Assembly (NCBI GenBank): GCA_944387905.1
Contig: CALXGU010000001.1
Span: forward strand, 1-33,043
Direction of reading: 5' to 3'
From: an uncultured Clostridia bacterium
Lineage (GTDB): Bacteria > Bacillota > Clostridia > Oscillospirales > QAKW01
Length of the DNA: 33,043 nucleotides
Shown: positions 491 to 3,096 of the stretch, piece after piece
Numbering within the stretch: position 1 is the first letter of the stretch
Layout: every line of letters starts with the position of its first letter
Notes under the pieces: model-generated
Databases searched by the model: none
The model's input: only the letters and a program-made list of their open reading frames with translations
Told to the model about the DNA's origin: nothing
Position numbers and translations under genes: made by a program

Positions 491-1819
491 ATGGCTGATA
501 AAAACAACCATTCAGACGGAAAAGACACCCGTCAGATACCCAAAAAAAATATTACCGGAAGCTATCCGGGTGTTACCGGCACCTACCGGCCTCAGGCCAG
601 GCGTTCTGCAGCAAACGGTCCGACCGGCAGGCTTTCCGACAGTATTAAATCCGATAACCGGCAGTCAGAGCTCAAAAGCCAGTCAATAAAAGACAAATCA
701 AATCAGGCACCGCCAGCACAAACAAAAAAAGGTTTTGATTTCAAGCTCTGGTTTTCAAAAGAAAACAACCGTGCGTTTATTCGTCAGCTAAGATTTTACG
801 GGCTTATTGTTTTGGCGTCGCTGCTGCTGACATTCGGTATTATCAACATAAGCAACGATGTTTTTGCGTTTATAAAGCCGGATGAGAGCATAATCGTGAC
901 CATCGAGCAGGGCGTCAGCACCTCCGCTATAGCAAATTCGCTCAAAAAGGCGGGAGTAATTGACCATCCTCTGATTTTCAGGCTTTACAGCAAGCTGAAA
1001 AAGGCGGACGGAAAATATCAGTACGGAGATTATACTCTCAATTCCAACCTCGGTTATGATCAGATCATAAGCGCGCTCAAAAAGCCGTCGGTACAGGCGG
1101 AAACATTTACCGTGACAATCGAACCCGGCTCAACTCAGGACGATATCGTCGAGCTTTTTACAACAAACAAATATGCCTCGGCGGAAGAGCTTGACAACGC
1201 GCTTAACGAGTATGAATATGAGGACTTCGAGTTTGTATCCGAACTGCCTGAAAGACGGTGCAGACTTGAGGGCTATCTCCCGGGCGGTGAATATGAGTTC
1301 TATAAAGGTGAGAGCGCGGTATCCATGGTATCCAAAATGCTGACAAGATTTACCGAAACCATACTTACCGACGAAAACAAAACACTCATAGAAAATTCAG
1401 GTATGACACTTGATGACGTTATAACACTGTCGTCTCTTGTCTATGCCGAATGTGATGATTCGGGCGCTTACAAAGGCGCGGCCCGCGTACTCCTGAACCG
1501 TCTTGCCGATGACCAGGGCCTTCTGCAGCTGACCTGCACTATCAATTACGTTCTGCCTGCAAAAAAGAACGAATTTACTGCAGACGACAAAAAAACAGAC
1601 AGCGAATACAATACTTATATTTATGCCGGACTGCCGCCAGGTCCTGTCTGCAACCCGACCGCAGAAGCGGTAACAGCTGTTCTGTCGCCTGAGCAATCAG
1701 ACAATATGTATTTTGTCAGCGACAATGATAAAACATATTTTGCAAAGACACTCGAAGAGCACAATTCAAACTTAAATAAAGTATCTGCCTCAGCAAAAGG
1801 AACAGATACAATAAGATAA
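491..1819 (+). CDS. mltG: Endolytic murein transglycosylase MltG (YceG-like), with a ~100-aa basic low-complexity N-terminal tail and one TM segment
   Basis: 442-aa ORF whose ATG directly abuts the upstream stop. YceG-type motifs are present: TIEPGST, LSSLVYAE, LLNRL, YNTYIYAGLPPGPVCNP. TM segment is FYGLIVLASLLLTFGIINI. Confidence 0.85.
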   Translation: MADKNNHSDGKDTRQIPKKNITGSYPGVTGTYRPQARRSAANGPTGRLSDSIKSDNRQSELKSQSIKDKSNQAPPAQTKKGFDFKLWFSKENNRAFIRQLRFYGLIVLASLLLTFGIINISNDVFAFIKPDESIIVTIEQGVSTSAIANSLKKAGVIDHPLIFRLYSKLKKADGKYQYGDYTLNSNLGYDQIISALKKPSVQAETFTVTIEPGSTQDDIVELFTTNKYASAEELDNALNEYEYEDFEFVSELPERRCRLEGYLPGGEYEFYKGESAVSMVSKMLTRFTETILTDENKTLIENSGMTLDDVITLSSLVYAECDDSGAYKGAARVLLNRLADDQGLLQLTCTINYVLPAKKNEFTADDKKTDSEYNTYIYAGLPPGPVCNPTAEAVTAVLSPEQSDNMYFVSDNDKTYFAKTLEEHNSNLNKVSASAKGTDTIR

Positions 1820-1838
1820 TAAAAAACGTATCCCCGTT

Positions 1839-1881
1839 GGGAGACACTTCGTAAAGAAGTGTTCTCCCTTATTCATTTTTT
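1839..1881 (+). terminator. Intrinsic terminator of mltG
   Basis: GGGAGACACTTC (1839-1850) / loop GTAAA / GAAGTGTTCTCCC (1856-1868) gives a 12-bp stem with one bulge, followed by TTATTCATTTTTT. An A-tract at 1821-1826 lies upstream. Confidence 0.7.
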
Positions 1882-1890
1882 ATATAAAAA

Positions 1891-1920
1891 TTGACACTTT
1901 CTATTTGAAAGTGTCATAGT
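1891..1920 (+). promoter_or_regulatory. Candidate sigma-A promoter overlapped by a perfect palindrome (possible operator)
   Basis: Consensus -35 TTGACA at 1891-1896, 18-nt spacer, TGt-CATAGT extended -10-like element at 1912-1920. The palindrome TGACACTTTC-tattt-GAAAGTGTCA (1892-1916) spans the -35 to -10 interval. Confidence 0.4.
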
Positions 1921-1996
1921 GGGTTACGCACTTTCAAAATGTGCGTAACGGGAGTACATATTTTAAAATTAACCTATCTCAAATATAAGAATATTA

Positions 1997-2160
1997 AGTG
2001 ATATTGTGAGACAGGTCTCACAGTGATATTCTTTAGAATACCTCGCCTTTGGCGAGGTATTTCTAAAGAGTGATATTGAAACTTGTCGTTTCAGTGATAT
2101 TATATTCGCCCTTAAAACTCGCGAAGCGAATACAACTTGGGCTTTAGCCCAAATATCACT
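1997..2160. repeat. 9-nt motif AGTGATATT: four direct copies plus one inverted copy
   Basis: Exact direct copies at 1997-2005, 2022-2030, 2069-2077 and 2093-2101. The exact reverse complement AATATCACT is at 2152-2160. The three gaps between direct copies are each filled entirely by a different hairpin. Confidence 0.85.
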
Positions 2161-2226
2161 GCAAGCAATATAACTCGCCGACCCACAAAACCGTGGCTTT
2201 TGTGGGGTGAAAAGGCGAATATAACT

Positions 2227-2273
2227 GAGGCACACTTCCTTACGGAGTGTGCCTCTTCGGGATACGTTTTTTT
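2227..2273. terminator. Terminator-like hairpin downstream of the deoR-family gene (minus strand); also the likely 3' end of the plus-strand candidate RNA
   Basis: GAGGCACACT (2227-2236) pairs with AGTGTGCCTC (2246-2255). The T7 run at 2267-2273 sits 11 nt after the stem on the plus strand, and a moderately T-rich tract follows on the minus strand. It is homologous in inverted orientation to the mltG terminator module. Confidence 0.5.
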
Positions 2274-2325
2274 ATATCCAAAGTTCAAGCCGGTGTTTAT
2301 ACTGGCTTTCAGACCTTACCGACAT

Positions 2326-3096
2326 TCAATTCATGCCGGGCCATATTATTTCGCAGCCCGCGTCGCGCGCAGCTTCAGCGATATCCGTGTTTGGCACAGT
2401 GTCTGTGAGGATATAGTCAAGTCTGTCAAATCCGCATACAGCGCCCATACAGTCTCTGCCGAATTTACTGCTGTCGCAGAGTAATATACGGGTCGCGGAG
2501 TTTTCAAGCATTTTTCGCTTTATATGAGCCTGATCCCGGCTCGCCTCGGTAACGCCGCGCGTAAGCGAGATACCTGAGCAGGATATTATGCACAGATCGG
2601 CATAAAATCCCGATATATATTCAACAGCGTCCGTGCCCAGAGCGGCATCTGAATACCCGCTGACAGTGCCCGGACATATATACACCTTTACCGCTCCCTG
2701 CTGAGTTAGTTTCAGACAGTTGCGTATACCGTTTGTTATAACGGATACCGGACCGGCCGATATAAGGTACGGTATAACCGCACCGGCGCTCGAGCTGGAA
2801 TCAATAAAAACCGTCGTTTCCGGCCGCAGAAAATCACTTACCAGCCCCGCAATAACTCGTTTTTTCTGAACATTCTGCTTTTCCCGTATCATACCCGGAC
2901 TTTCAACTGCGCCGCCCTGAGGCAGAAACGCACCGCCGTGGCTGCGGCTGAGCACACCGCTCTTTTCAAGATCTATAAGATCACGCCTGATCGTCGCCTC
3001 CGATACATACAGGTTCTGAGCAAGCTCCTGCACTGTTACGCTTTTTTTTCGATGCAGCTCATCAGCTATTTTTTGCTGTCTCTCTTTTTTAAACAT
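2326..3096 (-). CDS. DeoR/GlpR-family transcriptional repressor
   Basis: 256 aa. N-terminal HTH is SVTVQELAQNLYVSEATIRRDLIDLEKSGVLSRSHGGA, followed by a C-terminal sugar-phosphate-binding DeoR-C-like domain. Its ATG overlaps the stop of the upstream gene (TAATG). Confidence 0.85.
   Translation of the reverse strand: MFKKERQQKIADELHRKKSVTVQELAQNLYVSEATIRRDLIDLEKSGVLSRSHGGAFLPQGGAVESPGMIREKQNVQKKRVIAGLVSDFLRPETTVFIDSSSSAGAVIPYLISAGPVSVITNGIRNCLKLTQQGAVKVYICPGTVSGYSDAALGTDAVEYISGFYADLCIISCSGISLTRGVTEASRDQAHIKRKMLENSATRILLCDSSKFGRDCMGAVCGFDRLDYILTDTVPNTDIAEAARDAGCEIIWPGMN

What the first reader, a model, noticed from the sequence alone, without database searches (positions are those of the whole stretch)
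1821..2274. Two diverged inverted copies of one ~48-nt terminator module bracket the 450-bp insert (MITE-like architecture)
The segment 1821-1868 is AAAAAACGTATCCC..GGGAGACACTTCgtaaaGAAGTGTTCTCCC. The reverse complement of 2227-2273 is AAAAAAACGTATCCC..GAGGCACACTCCgtaagGAAGTGTGCCTC. The two share an exact 14-mer: AAAAAACGTATCCC at 1821-1834 and GGGATACGTTTTTT at 2259-2272. Their stem-loops are homologous, and the stem differences are compensatory (T-A in one copy, C-G in the other). So the whole hairpin-rich region is flanked by terminal inverted repeats that also look like terminators. Three readings fit. A non-autonomous mobile element may have inserted into or duplicated a bidirectional terminator. 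A genome-wide REP-like terminator family may exist. Or a long closing helix may form if mltG read-through transcribes both arms.
Basis: seen in the sequence. Interest (0 to 1): 0.6.

Follow-up and report, generated by a model that had tools for sequence, protein, structure and literature searches.

The report
Tiny mobile element splitting a terminator
The two inverted "terminator modules" are the halves of one ordinary gene terminator, split by a 417-bp gene-less mobile element with its own hairpin ends; it looks like a miniature, dependent relative of Tn4451-type mobilizable transposons that insert into terminator loops in gut Clostridia.

Summary
The 14-mer AAAAAACGTATCCC occurs twice in the genome, inverted, at 1821 and 2259. 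The 14-mers are the two arms of the ancestral mltG/deoR bidirectional terminator. The closest relative keeps that terminator intact as an empty site.

A 417-bp element (1839-2255) sits at the loop apex, flanked by TT on each side. Its own ends are two inverted 29-30-nt hairpins, LH and RH. Between them lie:
- a MOBV-type transfer origin, identical in its core to the sequence upstream of many Mob_Pre relaxase genes;
- a two-armed AGTGATATT/hairpin ladder, which in sister copies passes Rfam's Gut-1 threshold.

The family is multi-copy: 40 of 50 genomes of the bacterial family carry it. About 30 copies sit in locus-specific terminators, and 28 of 33 have identical flanking dinucleotides. The same hairpin ends bound gene cassettes and 7-8-kb elements that encode TnpV, a Mob_Pre relaxase and a TnpX-like large serine recombinase.

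Best reading: this is a non-autonomous MITE/CIME-like derivative of a Tn4451-like element family, moved in trans by a serine recombinase through a 2-bp crossover. LH and RH would also replace the split terminator. The recombinase step and the role of the ladder are inferred, not shown.

The parts
491..1819 (+). mltG/YceG-family gene. Its stop codon lies directly before the split terminator.
   Evidence: Pfam YceG, 231 bits; ORF list.
1821..1836 (.). Left arm of the ancestral bidirectional terminator (A-run + CGTATCCC + CG). This is host DNA, not part of the element.
   Evidence: The same arm is present in the intact hairpin AAAAACGTATCCCG-TAT-TCGGGATACGTTTTT of the closest relative (L009 / G048:C6).
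1837..1838 (.). Left copy of the flanking TT dinucleotide, the putative 2-bp crossover or duplication.
   Evidence: The same dinucleotide flanks both ends in 28 of 33 element copies, against a control frequency of 0.24 (p = 4e-13).
1839..1868 (+). LH, the left terminal hairpin of the element (GGGAGACACTTCGTAAAGAAGTGTTCTCCC, with one bulged T). With the T-rich tail at 1869-1883 it acts as a replacement terminator for mltG.
   Evidence: The hairpin is conserved at the left end of about 30 copies and of 7-8-kb autonomous elements. It folds at -21 kcal/mol.
1891..1949 (+). MOBV-type origin of transfer overlapping a promoter-like site.
- IR1: 1892-1901 / 1907-1916.
- Predicted nick: G1923/T1924 in ATAGTGGG/TTAC.
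- Second hairpin: 1923-1934 / 1938-1949.
- CACTTTC repeated at 1895 and 1929.
- Promoter-like TTGACA-18-CATAGT: 1891-1920.
   Evidence: 33 of 36 nt are identical to the sequence 60 nt upstream of a Mob/Pre gene in a Tn4451-like unit. The same core lies upstream of more than 20 Mob_Pre genes and in L323. The layout matches the pMV158 oriT: IR1, then 8 nt, then the nick at G/T (PMC5863519). Promoter scan.
1950..1996 (+). Spacer homologous to the 5'UTR/RBS region of the relaxase gene of the autonomous elements (CCTATCTCAAA...AAGTGATA).
   Evidence: Comparison with L323 4960-5015 by eye. This is inferred homology, not aligned statistically.
1997..2101 (+). Left arm of the hairpin ladder. It has 4 x AGTGATATT (at 1997, 2022, 2069, 2093) separated by perfect mini-hairpins.
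   Evidence: the repeat finder family D1. Weak Rfam Gut-1 hit of 30.9 bits.
2100..2152 (.). Central hairpins of the ladder (ATATTCGCC...GCGAATA and TTGGGCTTTAGCCCAA).
   Evidence: Inverted repeats I24 and the neighbouring palindrome. Conserved in sister copies.
2152..2226 (-). Right arm of the ladder. It reads AGTGATATT/AGTTATATT on the - strand (2152-2160, 2167-2175, 2218-2226). A copy-specific extra hairpin lies at 2176-2217.
   Evidence: Rfam Gut-1 hit of 24.2 bits on the - strand. The same arm in 7 sister copies reaches the Gut-1 gathering score, 50.9-60.5 bits. The extra hairpin is also seen in G040 copies.
2227..2255 (+). RH, the right terminal hairpin of the element (GAGGCACACTTCCTTACGGAGTGTGCCTC). 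It is an inverted relative of LH. On the - strand it faces the incoming deoR transcript.
   Evidence: Conserved at the right end of copies, cassettes and autonomous elements. It is 29/29 identical to the RH of L022. It folds at -27 kcal/mol.
2256..2257 (.). Right copy of the flanking TT dinucleotide.
2258..2273 (.). Right arm of the ancestral terminator (CGGGATACG + T-run). This is host DNA.
2326..3096 (-). DeoR-family regulator gene, convergent with mltG.
   Evidence: Pfam DeoRC + HTH_DeoR.

Best explanation
Window 1839-2255 is a 417-bp, gene-less, non-autonomous mobile element (MITE/CIME-like). It is inserted at the apex of the loop of the ancestral mltG/deoR bidirectional terminator.

The element's true ends are two inverted, palindromic 29-30-bp hairpins, LH and RH. 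The same ends bound gene cassettes and 7-8-kb integrative mobilizable elements. Those larger elements encode TnpV, a MOBV (Mob_Pre) relaxase and a TnpX-like large serine recombinase.

Proposed mechanism (inferred):
1. A serine recombinase supplied in trans joins RH and LH into a small circle whose joint reads RH-XX-LH.
2. It recombines this palindromic joint with another palindrome of the form A-run / short GC stem / loop / stem / T-run, which is an intrinsic terminator.
3. The exchange is across a 2-bp crossover at the dyad centre. This leaves the same dinucleotide (here TT) on both sides.

The element also carries the family's origin of transfer, so a relaxase in trans could mobilise it between cells. 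After insertion, LH (facing mltG) and RH (facing deoR) replace the terminator that was split, so the insertion costs the host little.

What is shown: the insertion, the boundaries, the family, the dinucleotide rule, the oriT homology, and the shared ends with recombinase-encoding elements.
What is inferred: catalysis by the serine recombinase, the circular intermediate, actual transfer, terminator activity of LH/RH, and any role of the Gut-1 ladder.

The stated confidence of 0.72 is for the whole statement. I put about 0.9 on the insertion and its boundaries, and about 0.65 on the serine recombinase as the catalyst.
For: 1. Empty site. The closest relative (MltG 86% identical) has AAAAACGTATCCCG-TAT-TCGGGATACGTTTTT, one -18 kcal/mol hairpin, exactly where the window has arm-TT-[417 bp]-TT-arm. 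The joined window flanks align contiguously to G048:C6.
2. Second empty site. A 1.1-kb cassette with the same ends at G000:C117 has an empty site in G048: AAAAAAACAGCCC-TTG-GGGCTGTTTTTTT.
3. Multi-copy family. It is present in 40 of 50 genomes of the bacterial family, with up to 23 hits per genome. The best match, 96% identical over 345 bp, is in another genus. Contigs C36 and C118 break inside copies.
4. Locus-specific flanks. Flanks are complementary arms with A/T-runs. At least 6 non-A nt pair in 28 of 33 pairs, against 406 of 1052 mismatched-locus controls.
5. Flanking dinucleotide. It is identical on both sides in 28 of 33 pairs (p = 3.7e-13). It is specific to each subfamily: TA, AA, TT, AT, GA or GT. 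Two insertions of a 99.8%-identical 8.2-kb element in different terminators both carry AA.
6. Autonomous members with the same ends.
   - L323 and L324 have both LH and RH. They encode TnpV (164 bits), Mob_Pre (141 bits) and a Resolvase+Recombinase+Zn_ribbon+DUF4368 protein.
   - Eisenbergiella porci has an LH-like left end and RH. For Ihubacter sp. only the RH end was found.
7. oriT. The core GAAAGTGTCATAGTGGGTTACGCACTTTC lies upstream of more than 20 Mob_Pre genes and of a Tn4451-like Mob/Pre gene. The layout matches pMV158.
8. Literature. The Tn4451 serine integrase recombines 2-bp identical sequences in its att sites, has low target specificity and is paired with a MobV relaxase (PMC5704250).
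9. Target profile. Across 27 sites it is a symmetric palindrome, with the T-run starting 7-10 nt from the dinucleotide and G-rich positions 2-4. It resembles the CCC-XX-GGG joint.
Against: - No recombinase, circle junction or transcript was observed for this copy.
- The window's own genome has only one DUF4368-type recombinase, 37% identical to the query, at a contig end and with no informative context.
- Across the 50 genomes, presence of such recombinases does not track element copy number. G004 has many copies and no hit; G039 has four hits and no copy.
- The window copy breaks the rule that the dinucleotide 5' of LH pairs with the dinucleotide 3' of it: it reads TT|LH|TT. I explain this by mosaicism. 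LH and the interior are of the AA-type, while RH and the flanks are of the TT-type. That explanation is post hoc.
- Why the LH palindrome should include the crossover dinucleotide is not explained by serine-recombinase chemistry.
- The hybrid L118, first taken as an autonomous member, is better read as an oriT x oriT recombinant.
Confidence: 0.72

Rival explanations
1. Single-strand (hairpin-guided) transposition. An HUH enzyme (an IS200/IS605-like Y1 transposase, a RAYT or the Mob_Pre relaxase itself) recognises LH and RH as folded ssDNA hairpins. It inserts the element into the single-stranded loop of an extruded terminator hairpin. The 2 nt 3' of LH would act as a guide that base-pairs with the target dinucleotide.
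For: - The dinucleotide 5' of LH is complementary to the dinucleotide just 3' of LH in 28 of about 30 copies. This resembles guide/target pairing at the hairpin foot in IS608; that comparison is from my own knowledge.
- Insertion is always at a loop apex.
- All hairpins are perfect palindromes with conserved bulges.
Against: - LH and RH are inverted relative to each other. They are not in the same orientation on one strand, as in IS200/IS605.
- The same dinucleotide appears on both sides, whereas that family leaves none.
- Cassettes lacking oriT have the same ends and insertion pattern, so the relaxase is not needed for insertion.
- No Y1 transposase was found inside any LH/RH-bounded element, whereas a serine recombinase was.
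Confidence: 0.12
2. An ordinary small-RNA gene. The region is a Gut-1-class ncRNA gene with its own promoter (1891-1920) and terminator hairpins. The inverted modules are simply the terminators of mltG, of the sRNA and of deoR. The multi-copy distribution reflects a gene family rather than mobility.
For: - There is a promoter-like TTGACA-18-TGn-CATAGT.
- Rfam Gut-1 is catalogued as an sRNA, and sister copies pass its threshold.
- Short arrays without LH or oriT exist next to PF05635 genes, so the ladder has a life outside the mobile element.
Against: - There is presence/absence at orthologous sites, with the host terminator restored.
- Split, locus-specific complementary flanks and matched dinucleotides are seen at about 30 sites.
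- The 'promoter' is the conserved oriT/Pmob of relaxase genes.
- Ladder stems show 822 Watson-Crick pairs and only 2 G-T pairs. This is unlike RNA-selected helices.
- The same ends carry protein-coding cargo.
- The element may well be transcribed, but that does not explain the architecture.
Confidence: 0.06
3. A classical DDE-transposase MITE (for example an IS630/Tc1-like or IS30-like element) that makes a 2-bp target-site duplication. LH and RH would be its terminal inverted repeats.
For: The element is small, non-coding, multi-copy, and has inverted ends and a 2-bp direct repeat. TA is among the commonest dinucleotides, at 5-6 sites.
Against: - Dinucleotides are not restricted to TA: AA, TT, AT, GA and GT also occur.
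- They are inherited by subfamily rather than drawn from each target.
- No DDE transposase was seen inside any element with these ends.
Confidence: 0.04
4. A local origin. The two modules arose by duplication and inversion of the mltG terminator, and the arms are kept because they form a functional long-range closing helix in read-through RNA.
For: The two arms are still perfectly complementary over 14 nt.
Against: The arms pre-exist as one short hairpin in the relative. LH and RH occur at over a hundred other loci in many genomes. The same split-arm pattern is seen around 1-8-kb cassettes, where an RNA closing helix is implausible.
Confidence: 0.02

Closest known systems
Tn4451/Tn4453 family of integrative mobilizable elements (TnpX large serine recombinase, TnpV, TnpZ = Mob/Pre relaxase, RS_A oriT)
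   Same: Autonomous relatives encode the same protein set: TnpV, Mob_Pre and a Resolvase+Recombinase+Zn-ribbon+DUF4368 protein. The window's oriT core is 33/36 identical to the site upstream of the Mob/Pre gene of a Tn4451-like unit. Elements are flanked by 2-bp identical sequences, as described for Tn4451 (PMC5704250).
   Different: - The window copy has no genes at all.
- The ends are 29-30-bp palindromic hairpins.
- The crossover dinucleotide varies by subfamily, rather than being the GA I recall for Tn4451.
- Targets are the loop apices of intrinsic terminators. I found no description of this for Tn4451 relatives in the searched literature.
CIMEs (cis-mobilizable elements: decayed ICE/IME that keep attL/attR) and bacterial MITEs such as Neisseria Correia elements
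   Same: The element is gene-less and keeps the ends of an autonomous element. It is multi-copy, intergenic and carries terminator- and promoter-like signals. The CIME definition is from PMC5704250; the Correia properties are from my own knowledge.
   Different: CIMEs are usually site-specific relics at one attB. This family is dispersed over dozens of different terminators and additionally keeps an oriT. Correia elements depend on a DDE-type mechanism with a TA duplication, which does not fit here.
Rfam Gut-1 RNA motif (RF01706)
   Same: The right arm of the ladder in seven sister copies scores 50.9-60.5 bits against a gathering score of 50. The window's arms give 30.9 and 24.2 bits.
   Different: Gut-1 models three hairpins on one strand as an sRNA. 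Here it is half of a two-armed palindromic ladder, embedded in a mobile DNA element or next to PF05635 genes. The stems show no G-U pairs. The window copy itself is below threshold.
oriT of pMV158 / MOBV1 plasmids
   Same: There is an IR1 hairpin, then 8 nt, then a G/T nick (ATAGTGGG/TTAC against ...TGTG/TTATAC). A direct repeat is shared by IR1-L and the downstream arm. The site overlaps the mob promoter.
   Different: The sequence outside the nick region differs. Nicking was not tested. In the window no relaxase gene follows.
Elements that target hairpins: IS1397/ISKpn1 in REP loops, IS1111-attC group, class C group II introns after terminators (own knowledge; PMC7923331 listed)
   Same: The insertion site is defined by a palindromic or hairpin structure rather than by a fixed sequence.
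   Different: The enzymes differ (DDE transposase, DEDD transposase, reverse transcriptase), and so do the positions. Group IIC introns insert after the terminator, not in the loop. None is reported to split terminator loops with a 2-bp repeat.

Membership tests
MITE / non-autonomous derivative of an autonomous element | Small, no coding capacity | tested here: met
   The element is 417 bp. Only chance ORFs cross it.
MITE / non-autonomous derivative of an autonomous element | Terminal inverted repeats shared with an autonomous element | tested here: met
   LH and RH are inverted relatives of each other. The same hairpins end the 8.2-kb L323/L324 element and, with an LH-like left end, the 7.4-kb L321 element.
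MITE / non-autonomous derivative of an autonomous element | Multiple dispersed copies and empty orthologous sites | tested here: met
   Present in 40 of 50 genomes. Empty sites were found for the window locus and for the C117 locus.
MITE / non-autonomous derivative of an autonomous element | Short direct repeat at both ends | tested here: met
   TT/TT here. The dinucleotides match in 28 of 33 pairs.
Tn4451-like serine-recombinase IME family | Encodes a large serine recombinase (TnpX-type, DUF4368) | tested here: not met
   There is no gene in the window element. The feature is met only by autonomous relatives with the same ends. The window copy is therefore a derivative, not a member in the strict sense.
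Tn4451-like serine-recombinase IME family | MOBV relaxase with cognate oriT (RS_A) | tested here: inconclusive
   An oriT sequence is present and homologous. There is no relaxase gene in the element, and nicking was not tested.
Tn4451-like serine-recombinase IME family | 2-bp identical sequences at attL and attR | tested here: met
   literature statement.
Tn4451-like serine-recombinase IME family | Excises as a circle whose joint resembles the target | not testable with these tools
The only indirect evidence is that the target profile resembles the CCC-XX-GGG joint.
Rfam Gut-1 (RF01706) | Covariance-model score at or above the gathering threshold (50 bits) | tested here: not met
   The window scores 30.9 and 24.2 bits. 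Seven homologous copies score 50.9-60.5 bits. The window copy is thus a diverged relative of true members.
REP/REPIN family | Free-standing extragenic palindromes or inverted pairs, spread by a RAYT | tested here: not met
   All ten hairpins in the genome are ends of 0.2-2.2-kb cassettes or are cut by contig ends. I did not search for a RAYT.
Intrinsic (rho-independent) terminator | GC-rich hairpin immediately followed by a U-tract | tested here: inconclusive
   LH is followed by UUAUUCAUUUUUU, and RH on the - strand by AGUUAUAUUCGCCUUUUC. The consensus scan did not call either hairpin. Activity was not tested.
MOBV1-type oriT | IR1 hairpin, nick 8 nt 3' of it at a G/T step, adjacent to a Mob_Pre gene | tested here: inconclusive
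   The geometry and the nick-region sequence match. Adjacency to Mob_Pre holds in more than 20 homologous loci but not in the window.

The most novel reading that the evidence does not exclude
The 417-bp element would be a complete, gene-less 'hitcher' made only of cis-acting parts:
- att hairpins for a trans-acting TnpX-like serine recombinase;
- a MOBV oriT for a trans-acting relaxase;
- the Gut-1 hairpin ladder as a DNA-level module, for example a single-strand origin or priming site, or a recombinase or four-helix-protein docking array.

A circle of about 420 nt could then excise, travel by conjugation as single-stranded DNA, be made double-stranded and re-enter a terminator loop in a new host. 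The Rfam Gut-1 motif would then not be an RNA gene. Intrinsic terminators would be a dedicated landing pad for a whole class of cassettes in gut Clostridia, including restriction-modification systems, regulators and transporters.
Probability: 0.2. Interest if true: 0.8.

Novelty: new variant of a known kind. Interest (0 to 1): 0.62.

Why it matters
- It explains a puzzling 450-bp hairpin-rich gap as a mobile element. It also shows that the terminator-like repeats seen in these genomes are element ends, not a REP family.
- It ties the orphan Gut-1 motif (in Rfam, function unknown) to a defined genetic context: miniature derivatives of Tn4451-like mobilizable elements.
- It suggests that a family of large serine recombinases uses intrinsic terminators as insertion sites. 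Terminators are abundant, palindromic and safe to split if the element brings its own.
- The same ends carry restriction-modification, regulator and transporter cassettes. The system may therefore act as a dispersed, integron-like cassette shuttle in Acutalibacteraceae/Oscillospiraceae of human and ruminant guts.
- Serine recombinases with relaxed, structure-like target choice are also of interest as tools.
- Autonomous members exist in cultured strains (Eisenbergiella porci, Ihubacter sp.), so the model is testable.

Tried and rejected
- Sequencing-run and read evidence for circle joints, empty sites or transcripts could not be obtained.
- REP/REPIN reading: rejected, because every hairpin is a paired cassette end.
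- Cargo as the mobilising enzyme: the cassettes in this genome carry an ECF-sigma-like protein and an XRE protein, with no recombinase. Other cargo is MATE-like, R-M, XRE and small ORFs.
- Phyletic link to DUF4368 recombinases: searching the L118 recombinase in the 50 family genomes found only homologues at 40% identity or less, with no correlation to copy number. The own-genome homologue sits at a contig end.
- L118 (LH + oriT + Mob_Pre + recombinase) looked like the autonomous parent. Comparison with 20 relaxase loci shows it is a hybrid joined at the nick site, so I did not use it as evidence for the ends.
- An automatic palindrome-extension script overran the boundaries and gave a false 3/31 dinucleotide match. 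I redid it with fixed offsets.
- A strict pattern search for LH/RH around the 80 relaxase loci found no pairs. A looser listing then revealed L306 and L321.
- Literature searches for terminator-loop-targeting elements and for Gut-1 found nothing relevant.
- The phage collection gave one weak hit to the ladder core only. I did not follow it.
Full report
**1. The observation**

The window is contig 1 of a 1.5-Mb, 199-contig, 78%-complete MAG with 42% G+C. The region 1820-2325 lies between two convergent genes:
- a YceG/MltG gene at 491-1819 (+);
- a DeoR-family gene at 2326-3096 (-).

AAAAAACGTATCCC occurs only at 1821 (+) and 2259 (-) in the whole assembly, against about 0.01 expected. The repeat finder reports the inverted arms 1819-1862 / 2232-2275 (44 nt, 70%) and 1815-1834 / 2259-2278 (20 nt, 90%). 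Both hairpins fold far better than shuffles.

**2. What the 14-mer is**

I fetched relatives of MltG. The closest is L009, an uncultured Clostridia MAG at 86% identity, which is G048 in the genome set. Between the same two genes it carries only TAAAAACGTATCCCG-TAT-TCGGGATACGTTTTTTATT. This is a single hairpin of -18 kcal/mol in either orientation, a bidirectional terminator.

The window reads ...AAAAAACGTATCCCCG-TT-[417 bp]-TT-CGGGATACGTTTTTTT. When I joined the window's two flanks, the 500-nt construct aligned contiguously to G048:C6. Two more distant congeners are also short here, with unrelated terminators.

The 14-mers are therefore the two arms of the target terminator. The insert is 1839-2255. 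It sits at the loop apex with TT on both sides.

**3. The insert's own ends and family**

The insert begins with LH (GGGAGACACTTCGTAAAGAAGTGTTCTCCC, 1839-1868). It ends with RH (GAGGCACACTTCCTTACGGAGTGTGCCTC, 2227-2255). RH is an inverted, compensatorily diverged relative of LH.

The whole insert is a repeat family:
- 40 of 50 genomes of the same bacterial family, in 4 genera, have matches, with up to 23 per genome.
- The best match, 96% over 345 bp, is in a different genus.

I read about 30 full-length copies and measured them with fixed boundaries. The flanks at each locus are complementary to each other but differ between loci. At least 6 non-A nt pair in 28 of 33 pairs, against 406 of 1052 when left and right flanks of different loci are paired. 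Outside the arms lie an A-run and a T-run. Each copy therefore splits a different intrinsic terminator.

The two nucleotides immediately outside LH and RH are identical in 28 of 33 pairs, against a control of 0.24 (p = 3.7e-13). They are AA, TT, TA, AT, GA or GT.

From 27 sites the target is a symmetric palindrome, roughly AAAAAA-N3-4-CCCN-WW-NGGG-N3-4-TTTTTT. The T-run starts 7-10 nt from the dinucleotide on both sides.

**4. The 'genome-wide terminator family' is made of element ends**

In the window's own genome the hairpin core occurs ten times. All occurrences are paired ends or are cut by contig ends:

| Location | Size | Content | Arms |
|---|---|---|---|
| C1 (the window) | 417 bp | oriT and ladder, no genes | AAAAAACGTATCCC / GGGATACGTTTTTT |
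| C187 | 210 bp | LH, oriT and RH, no ladder | no clear arm pairing |
| C2:11743-13929 | 2.2 kb | ECF-sigma-like protein | AAAAACGCCC / GGGCGTTTTT |
| C117:2677-3789 | 1.1 kb | XRE protein | AAAAAAACAGCC / GGCTGTTTTTTT, AA/AA |
| C118, C36 | truncated | copy cut by the contig end | not available |

The C117 cassette has its own empty site in G048: AAAAAAACAGCCC-TTG-GGGCTGTTTTTTT.

Elsewhere the same ends and split arms bound other cargo:
- a MATE-like transporter;
- restriction-modification pairs;
- XRE-plus-small-ORF sets.

An exact LH pattern hits more than 119 contigs among species representatives. These are mostly Acutalibacteraceae, Oscillospiraceae, Ruminococcaceae and unclassified Clostridia from human and ruminant guts.

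**5. The interior: transfer origin**

Positions 1891-1949 were noted by the first stage as an orphan promoter in a palindrome. A distant search of plasmids matched 1904-1939 at 33/36 to a site 60 nt upstream of a 'plasmid recombination protein' (Mob/Pre) gene. That gene is followed by TnpW and a DUF4368 recombinase, making a Tn4451-like unit.

The core GAAAGTGTCATAGTGGGTTACGCACTTTC recurs upstream of more than 20 Mob_Pre genes at 83-94% protein identity. It also occurs in cultured Ihubacter and Eisenbergiella.

The geometry equals that described for the pMV158 oriT (PMC5863519):
- an IR1 hairpin;
- a nick 8 nt downstream at a G/T step (ATAGTGGG/TTAC here, TGTG/TTATAC there);
- a direct repeat shared with the downstream arm;
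- overlap with the mob promoter.

I therefore read 1891-1949 as a MOBV oriT with a vestigial Pmob, and predict the nick at G1923/T1924. The spacer 1950-1996 resembles the relaxase 5'UTR/RBS of the autonomous elements. This fits an origin by internal deletion.

**6. The interior: the ladder**

From 1997 to 2226 there are four AGTGATATT motifs on the + strand and three AGTKATATT motifs on the - strand. They alternate with mini-hairpins around central hairpins.

Rfam gives only sub-threshold Gut-1 hits here: 30.9 and 24.2 bits against a gathering score of 50. Seven sister copies pass at 50.9-60.5 bits, always on the arm next to RH read on the - strand. Gut-1 is thus one half of this two-armed ladder.

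In 180 mini-hairpins from about 35 copies I counted 822 Watson-Crick pairs, 2 G-T, 2 A-C and 9 other mismatches. The absence of wobble pairs and of strand asymmetry argues for palindromes kept at the DNA level, or on both strands, rather than an RNA-only structure. Quasi-palindrome correction by template switching could also keep them perfect; that suggestion is inference from my own knowledge.

Short ladders without LH or oriT lie about 110 nt from PF05635 (23S_rRNA_IVP, Avd-like four-helix) genes in at least 10 loci. That family is in 37 of 50 genomes but not in this assembly. The ladder's function remains unknown.

**7. Who moves it**

A hairpin-core search in eight further genomes found two pairs 8166 bp apart. 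These are one 8.2-kb element, 99.8% identical, in two unrelated MAGs. It sits in opposite orientations in two different terminators (arms AAAGCAGAAGC / GCTTCTGCTTT and AAAAAAAGCACCC / GGGTGCTTTTTTT). Both insertions carry AA/AA, and both are bounded by LH and RH.

The element encodes:
- DUF6809;
- TnpV (164 bits);
- PadR, FtsW-like and VanZ proteins;
- Mob_Pre (141 bits), with the same oriT upstream;
- a Resolvase+Recombinase+Zn_ribbon+DUF4368 large serine recombinase.

Related elements occur in cultured strains. In Eisenbergiella porci WCA-389-WT-23B I found an LH-like left end, TnpV, oriT, Mob_Pre, a recombinase and RH. On the Ihubacter sp. rT4E-8 chromosome I found Mob_Pre, a recombinase, the right subterminal module and RH, but not the left end.

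This is the gene set of the Tn4451 family. According to PMC5704250, its serine integrase recombines 2-bp identical sequences in its att sites, needs no excisionase, has low target specificity and is paired with a MobV relaxase.

Three facts fit the rule that a serine recombinase's central dinucleotide must match between partners and is therefore inherited:
- The dinucleotides are subfamily-specific: six independent TA sites, six TT, three AT, two to three GA.
- The two independent AA insertions of the near-identical 8.2-kb element agree.
- The symmetric target resembles the CCC-XX-GGG joint.

I put about 0.65 on this enzyme being responsible, and about 0.9 on the insertion and boundaries.

**8. 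Oddities**

(a) The dinucleotide 5' of LH is complementary to the dinucleotide just 3' of LH in 28 of about 30 copies. Nothing similar holds at RH. Serine-recombinase chemistry does not require this. It could reflect palindrome correction after insertion, selection for a longer terminator stem, or a hairpin-guided single-strand mechanism (rival 1).

(b) The window copy is an exception, reading TT|LH|TT. It is also a mosaic:
- LH, oriT and the left ladder are 96-100% identical to the AA-type copy L015.
- RH is 29/29 identical to the TT-type copy L022 and only 23/29 to L015.

The simplest account is a TT-type insertion whose interior was later replaced by recombination with an incoming AA-type copy.

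(c) L118 joins a mini-element LH and 5' oriT half to an IME-type 3' oriT half at the predicted nick. It looks like oriT x oriT recombination.

**9. Consequences for the host**

After insertion, the mltG transcript meets LH (-21 kcal/mol) followed by UUAUUCAUUUUUU. The deoR transcript meets RH (-27 kcal/mol) followed by AGUUAUAUUCGCCUUUUC. The element therefore plausibly restores termination from both sides, which would make terminator loops safe landing sites. This is inferred and untested. The simple consensus scan did not call either hairpin.

**10. Limits**

- No transcript, circle or population data were available.
- The assembly is incomplete.
- DUF4368 recombinases in the 50 family genomes are at most 40% identical to the query and do not track copy number. 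Many copies may therefore be relics or depend on transient helpers.
- The library searches found no paper describing terminator-loop targeting by such elements, or any function for Gut-1. That is absence in the searched library only.
- Earlier AI notes of this scan had proposed terminator-loop insertion, an oriT and the four-helix-protein link for look-alike elements. I treated them as leads and re-derived each point from sequence.

Noticed in passing
L323 (G054:C32:14476-22674) and L324 (G055:C108): An 8.2-kb element is 99.8% identical in two unrelated gut MAGs, a Ruminococcus sp. faecal MAG and a dairy-cattle Clostridia MAG. It sits in different terminators and in opposite orientations, which points to very recent horizontal spread.
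   Followed up: yes
e.g. G021:C90:3090-3616, G030:C143:2772-3297, G035:C29:28683-29208, G040:C19:102400-102991: Short Gut-1 ladders without LH or oriT lie about 110 nt from divergently oriented PF05635 (23S rRNA IVP / Avd-like four-helix bundle) genes in at least 10 loci. The family is in 37 of 50 genomes but absent from this assembly.
   Followed up: partly
L118 / L243, about 1373-1500 on the reverse strand: This locus is a hybrid. A mini-element LH and the 5' half of oriT are joined at the predicted nick (GTGGG/TTAC) to the IME-type 3' half, followed by Mob_Pre and a serine recombinase. It suggests oriT x oriT recombination, the 'Pre' activity.
   Followed up: partly
L080 (G039:C10:15300-17600): At the terminator orthologous to the G000:C117 insertion site, another congener carries a 2.1-kb insert. 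Its ORFs look like a DNA methyltransferase and a partner gene, but I read them by eye only. It has no LH/RH hairpins, so the same terminator has been hit by a different element.
   Followed up: no
G000 contigs C36:1-60, C118:1-100, C187:583-792: Two contigs of this assembly begin or end inside copies of the element, so these repeats break the assembly. C187 holds a 210-bp copy with LH, oriT and RH but no ladder. Its left flank is part of a larger 1.2-kb composite in G048 (L023).
   Followed up: partly
Right ends of L128, L132, L169, L185, L306, L321, L323 and G000:C187: A conserved right subterminal module of about 75 nt lies just before RH in gene-carrying members: ...CGGCATAGCCAATAGCTATACCG-TTAACGAAATCAATTATTTAATTTTGATACAAGAGCCAC.... 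In ladder-type mini-elements the ladder takes its place.
   Followed up: no
Phage record MT835815.1, 5071-5159 (hit H13): A human-faecal phage contig matches the central part of the ladder (window 2091-2182) at 77% identity.
   Followed up: no
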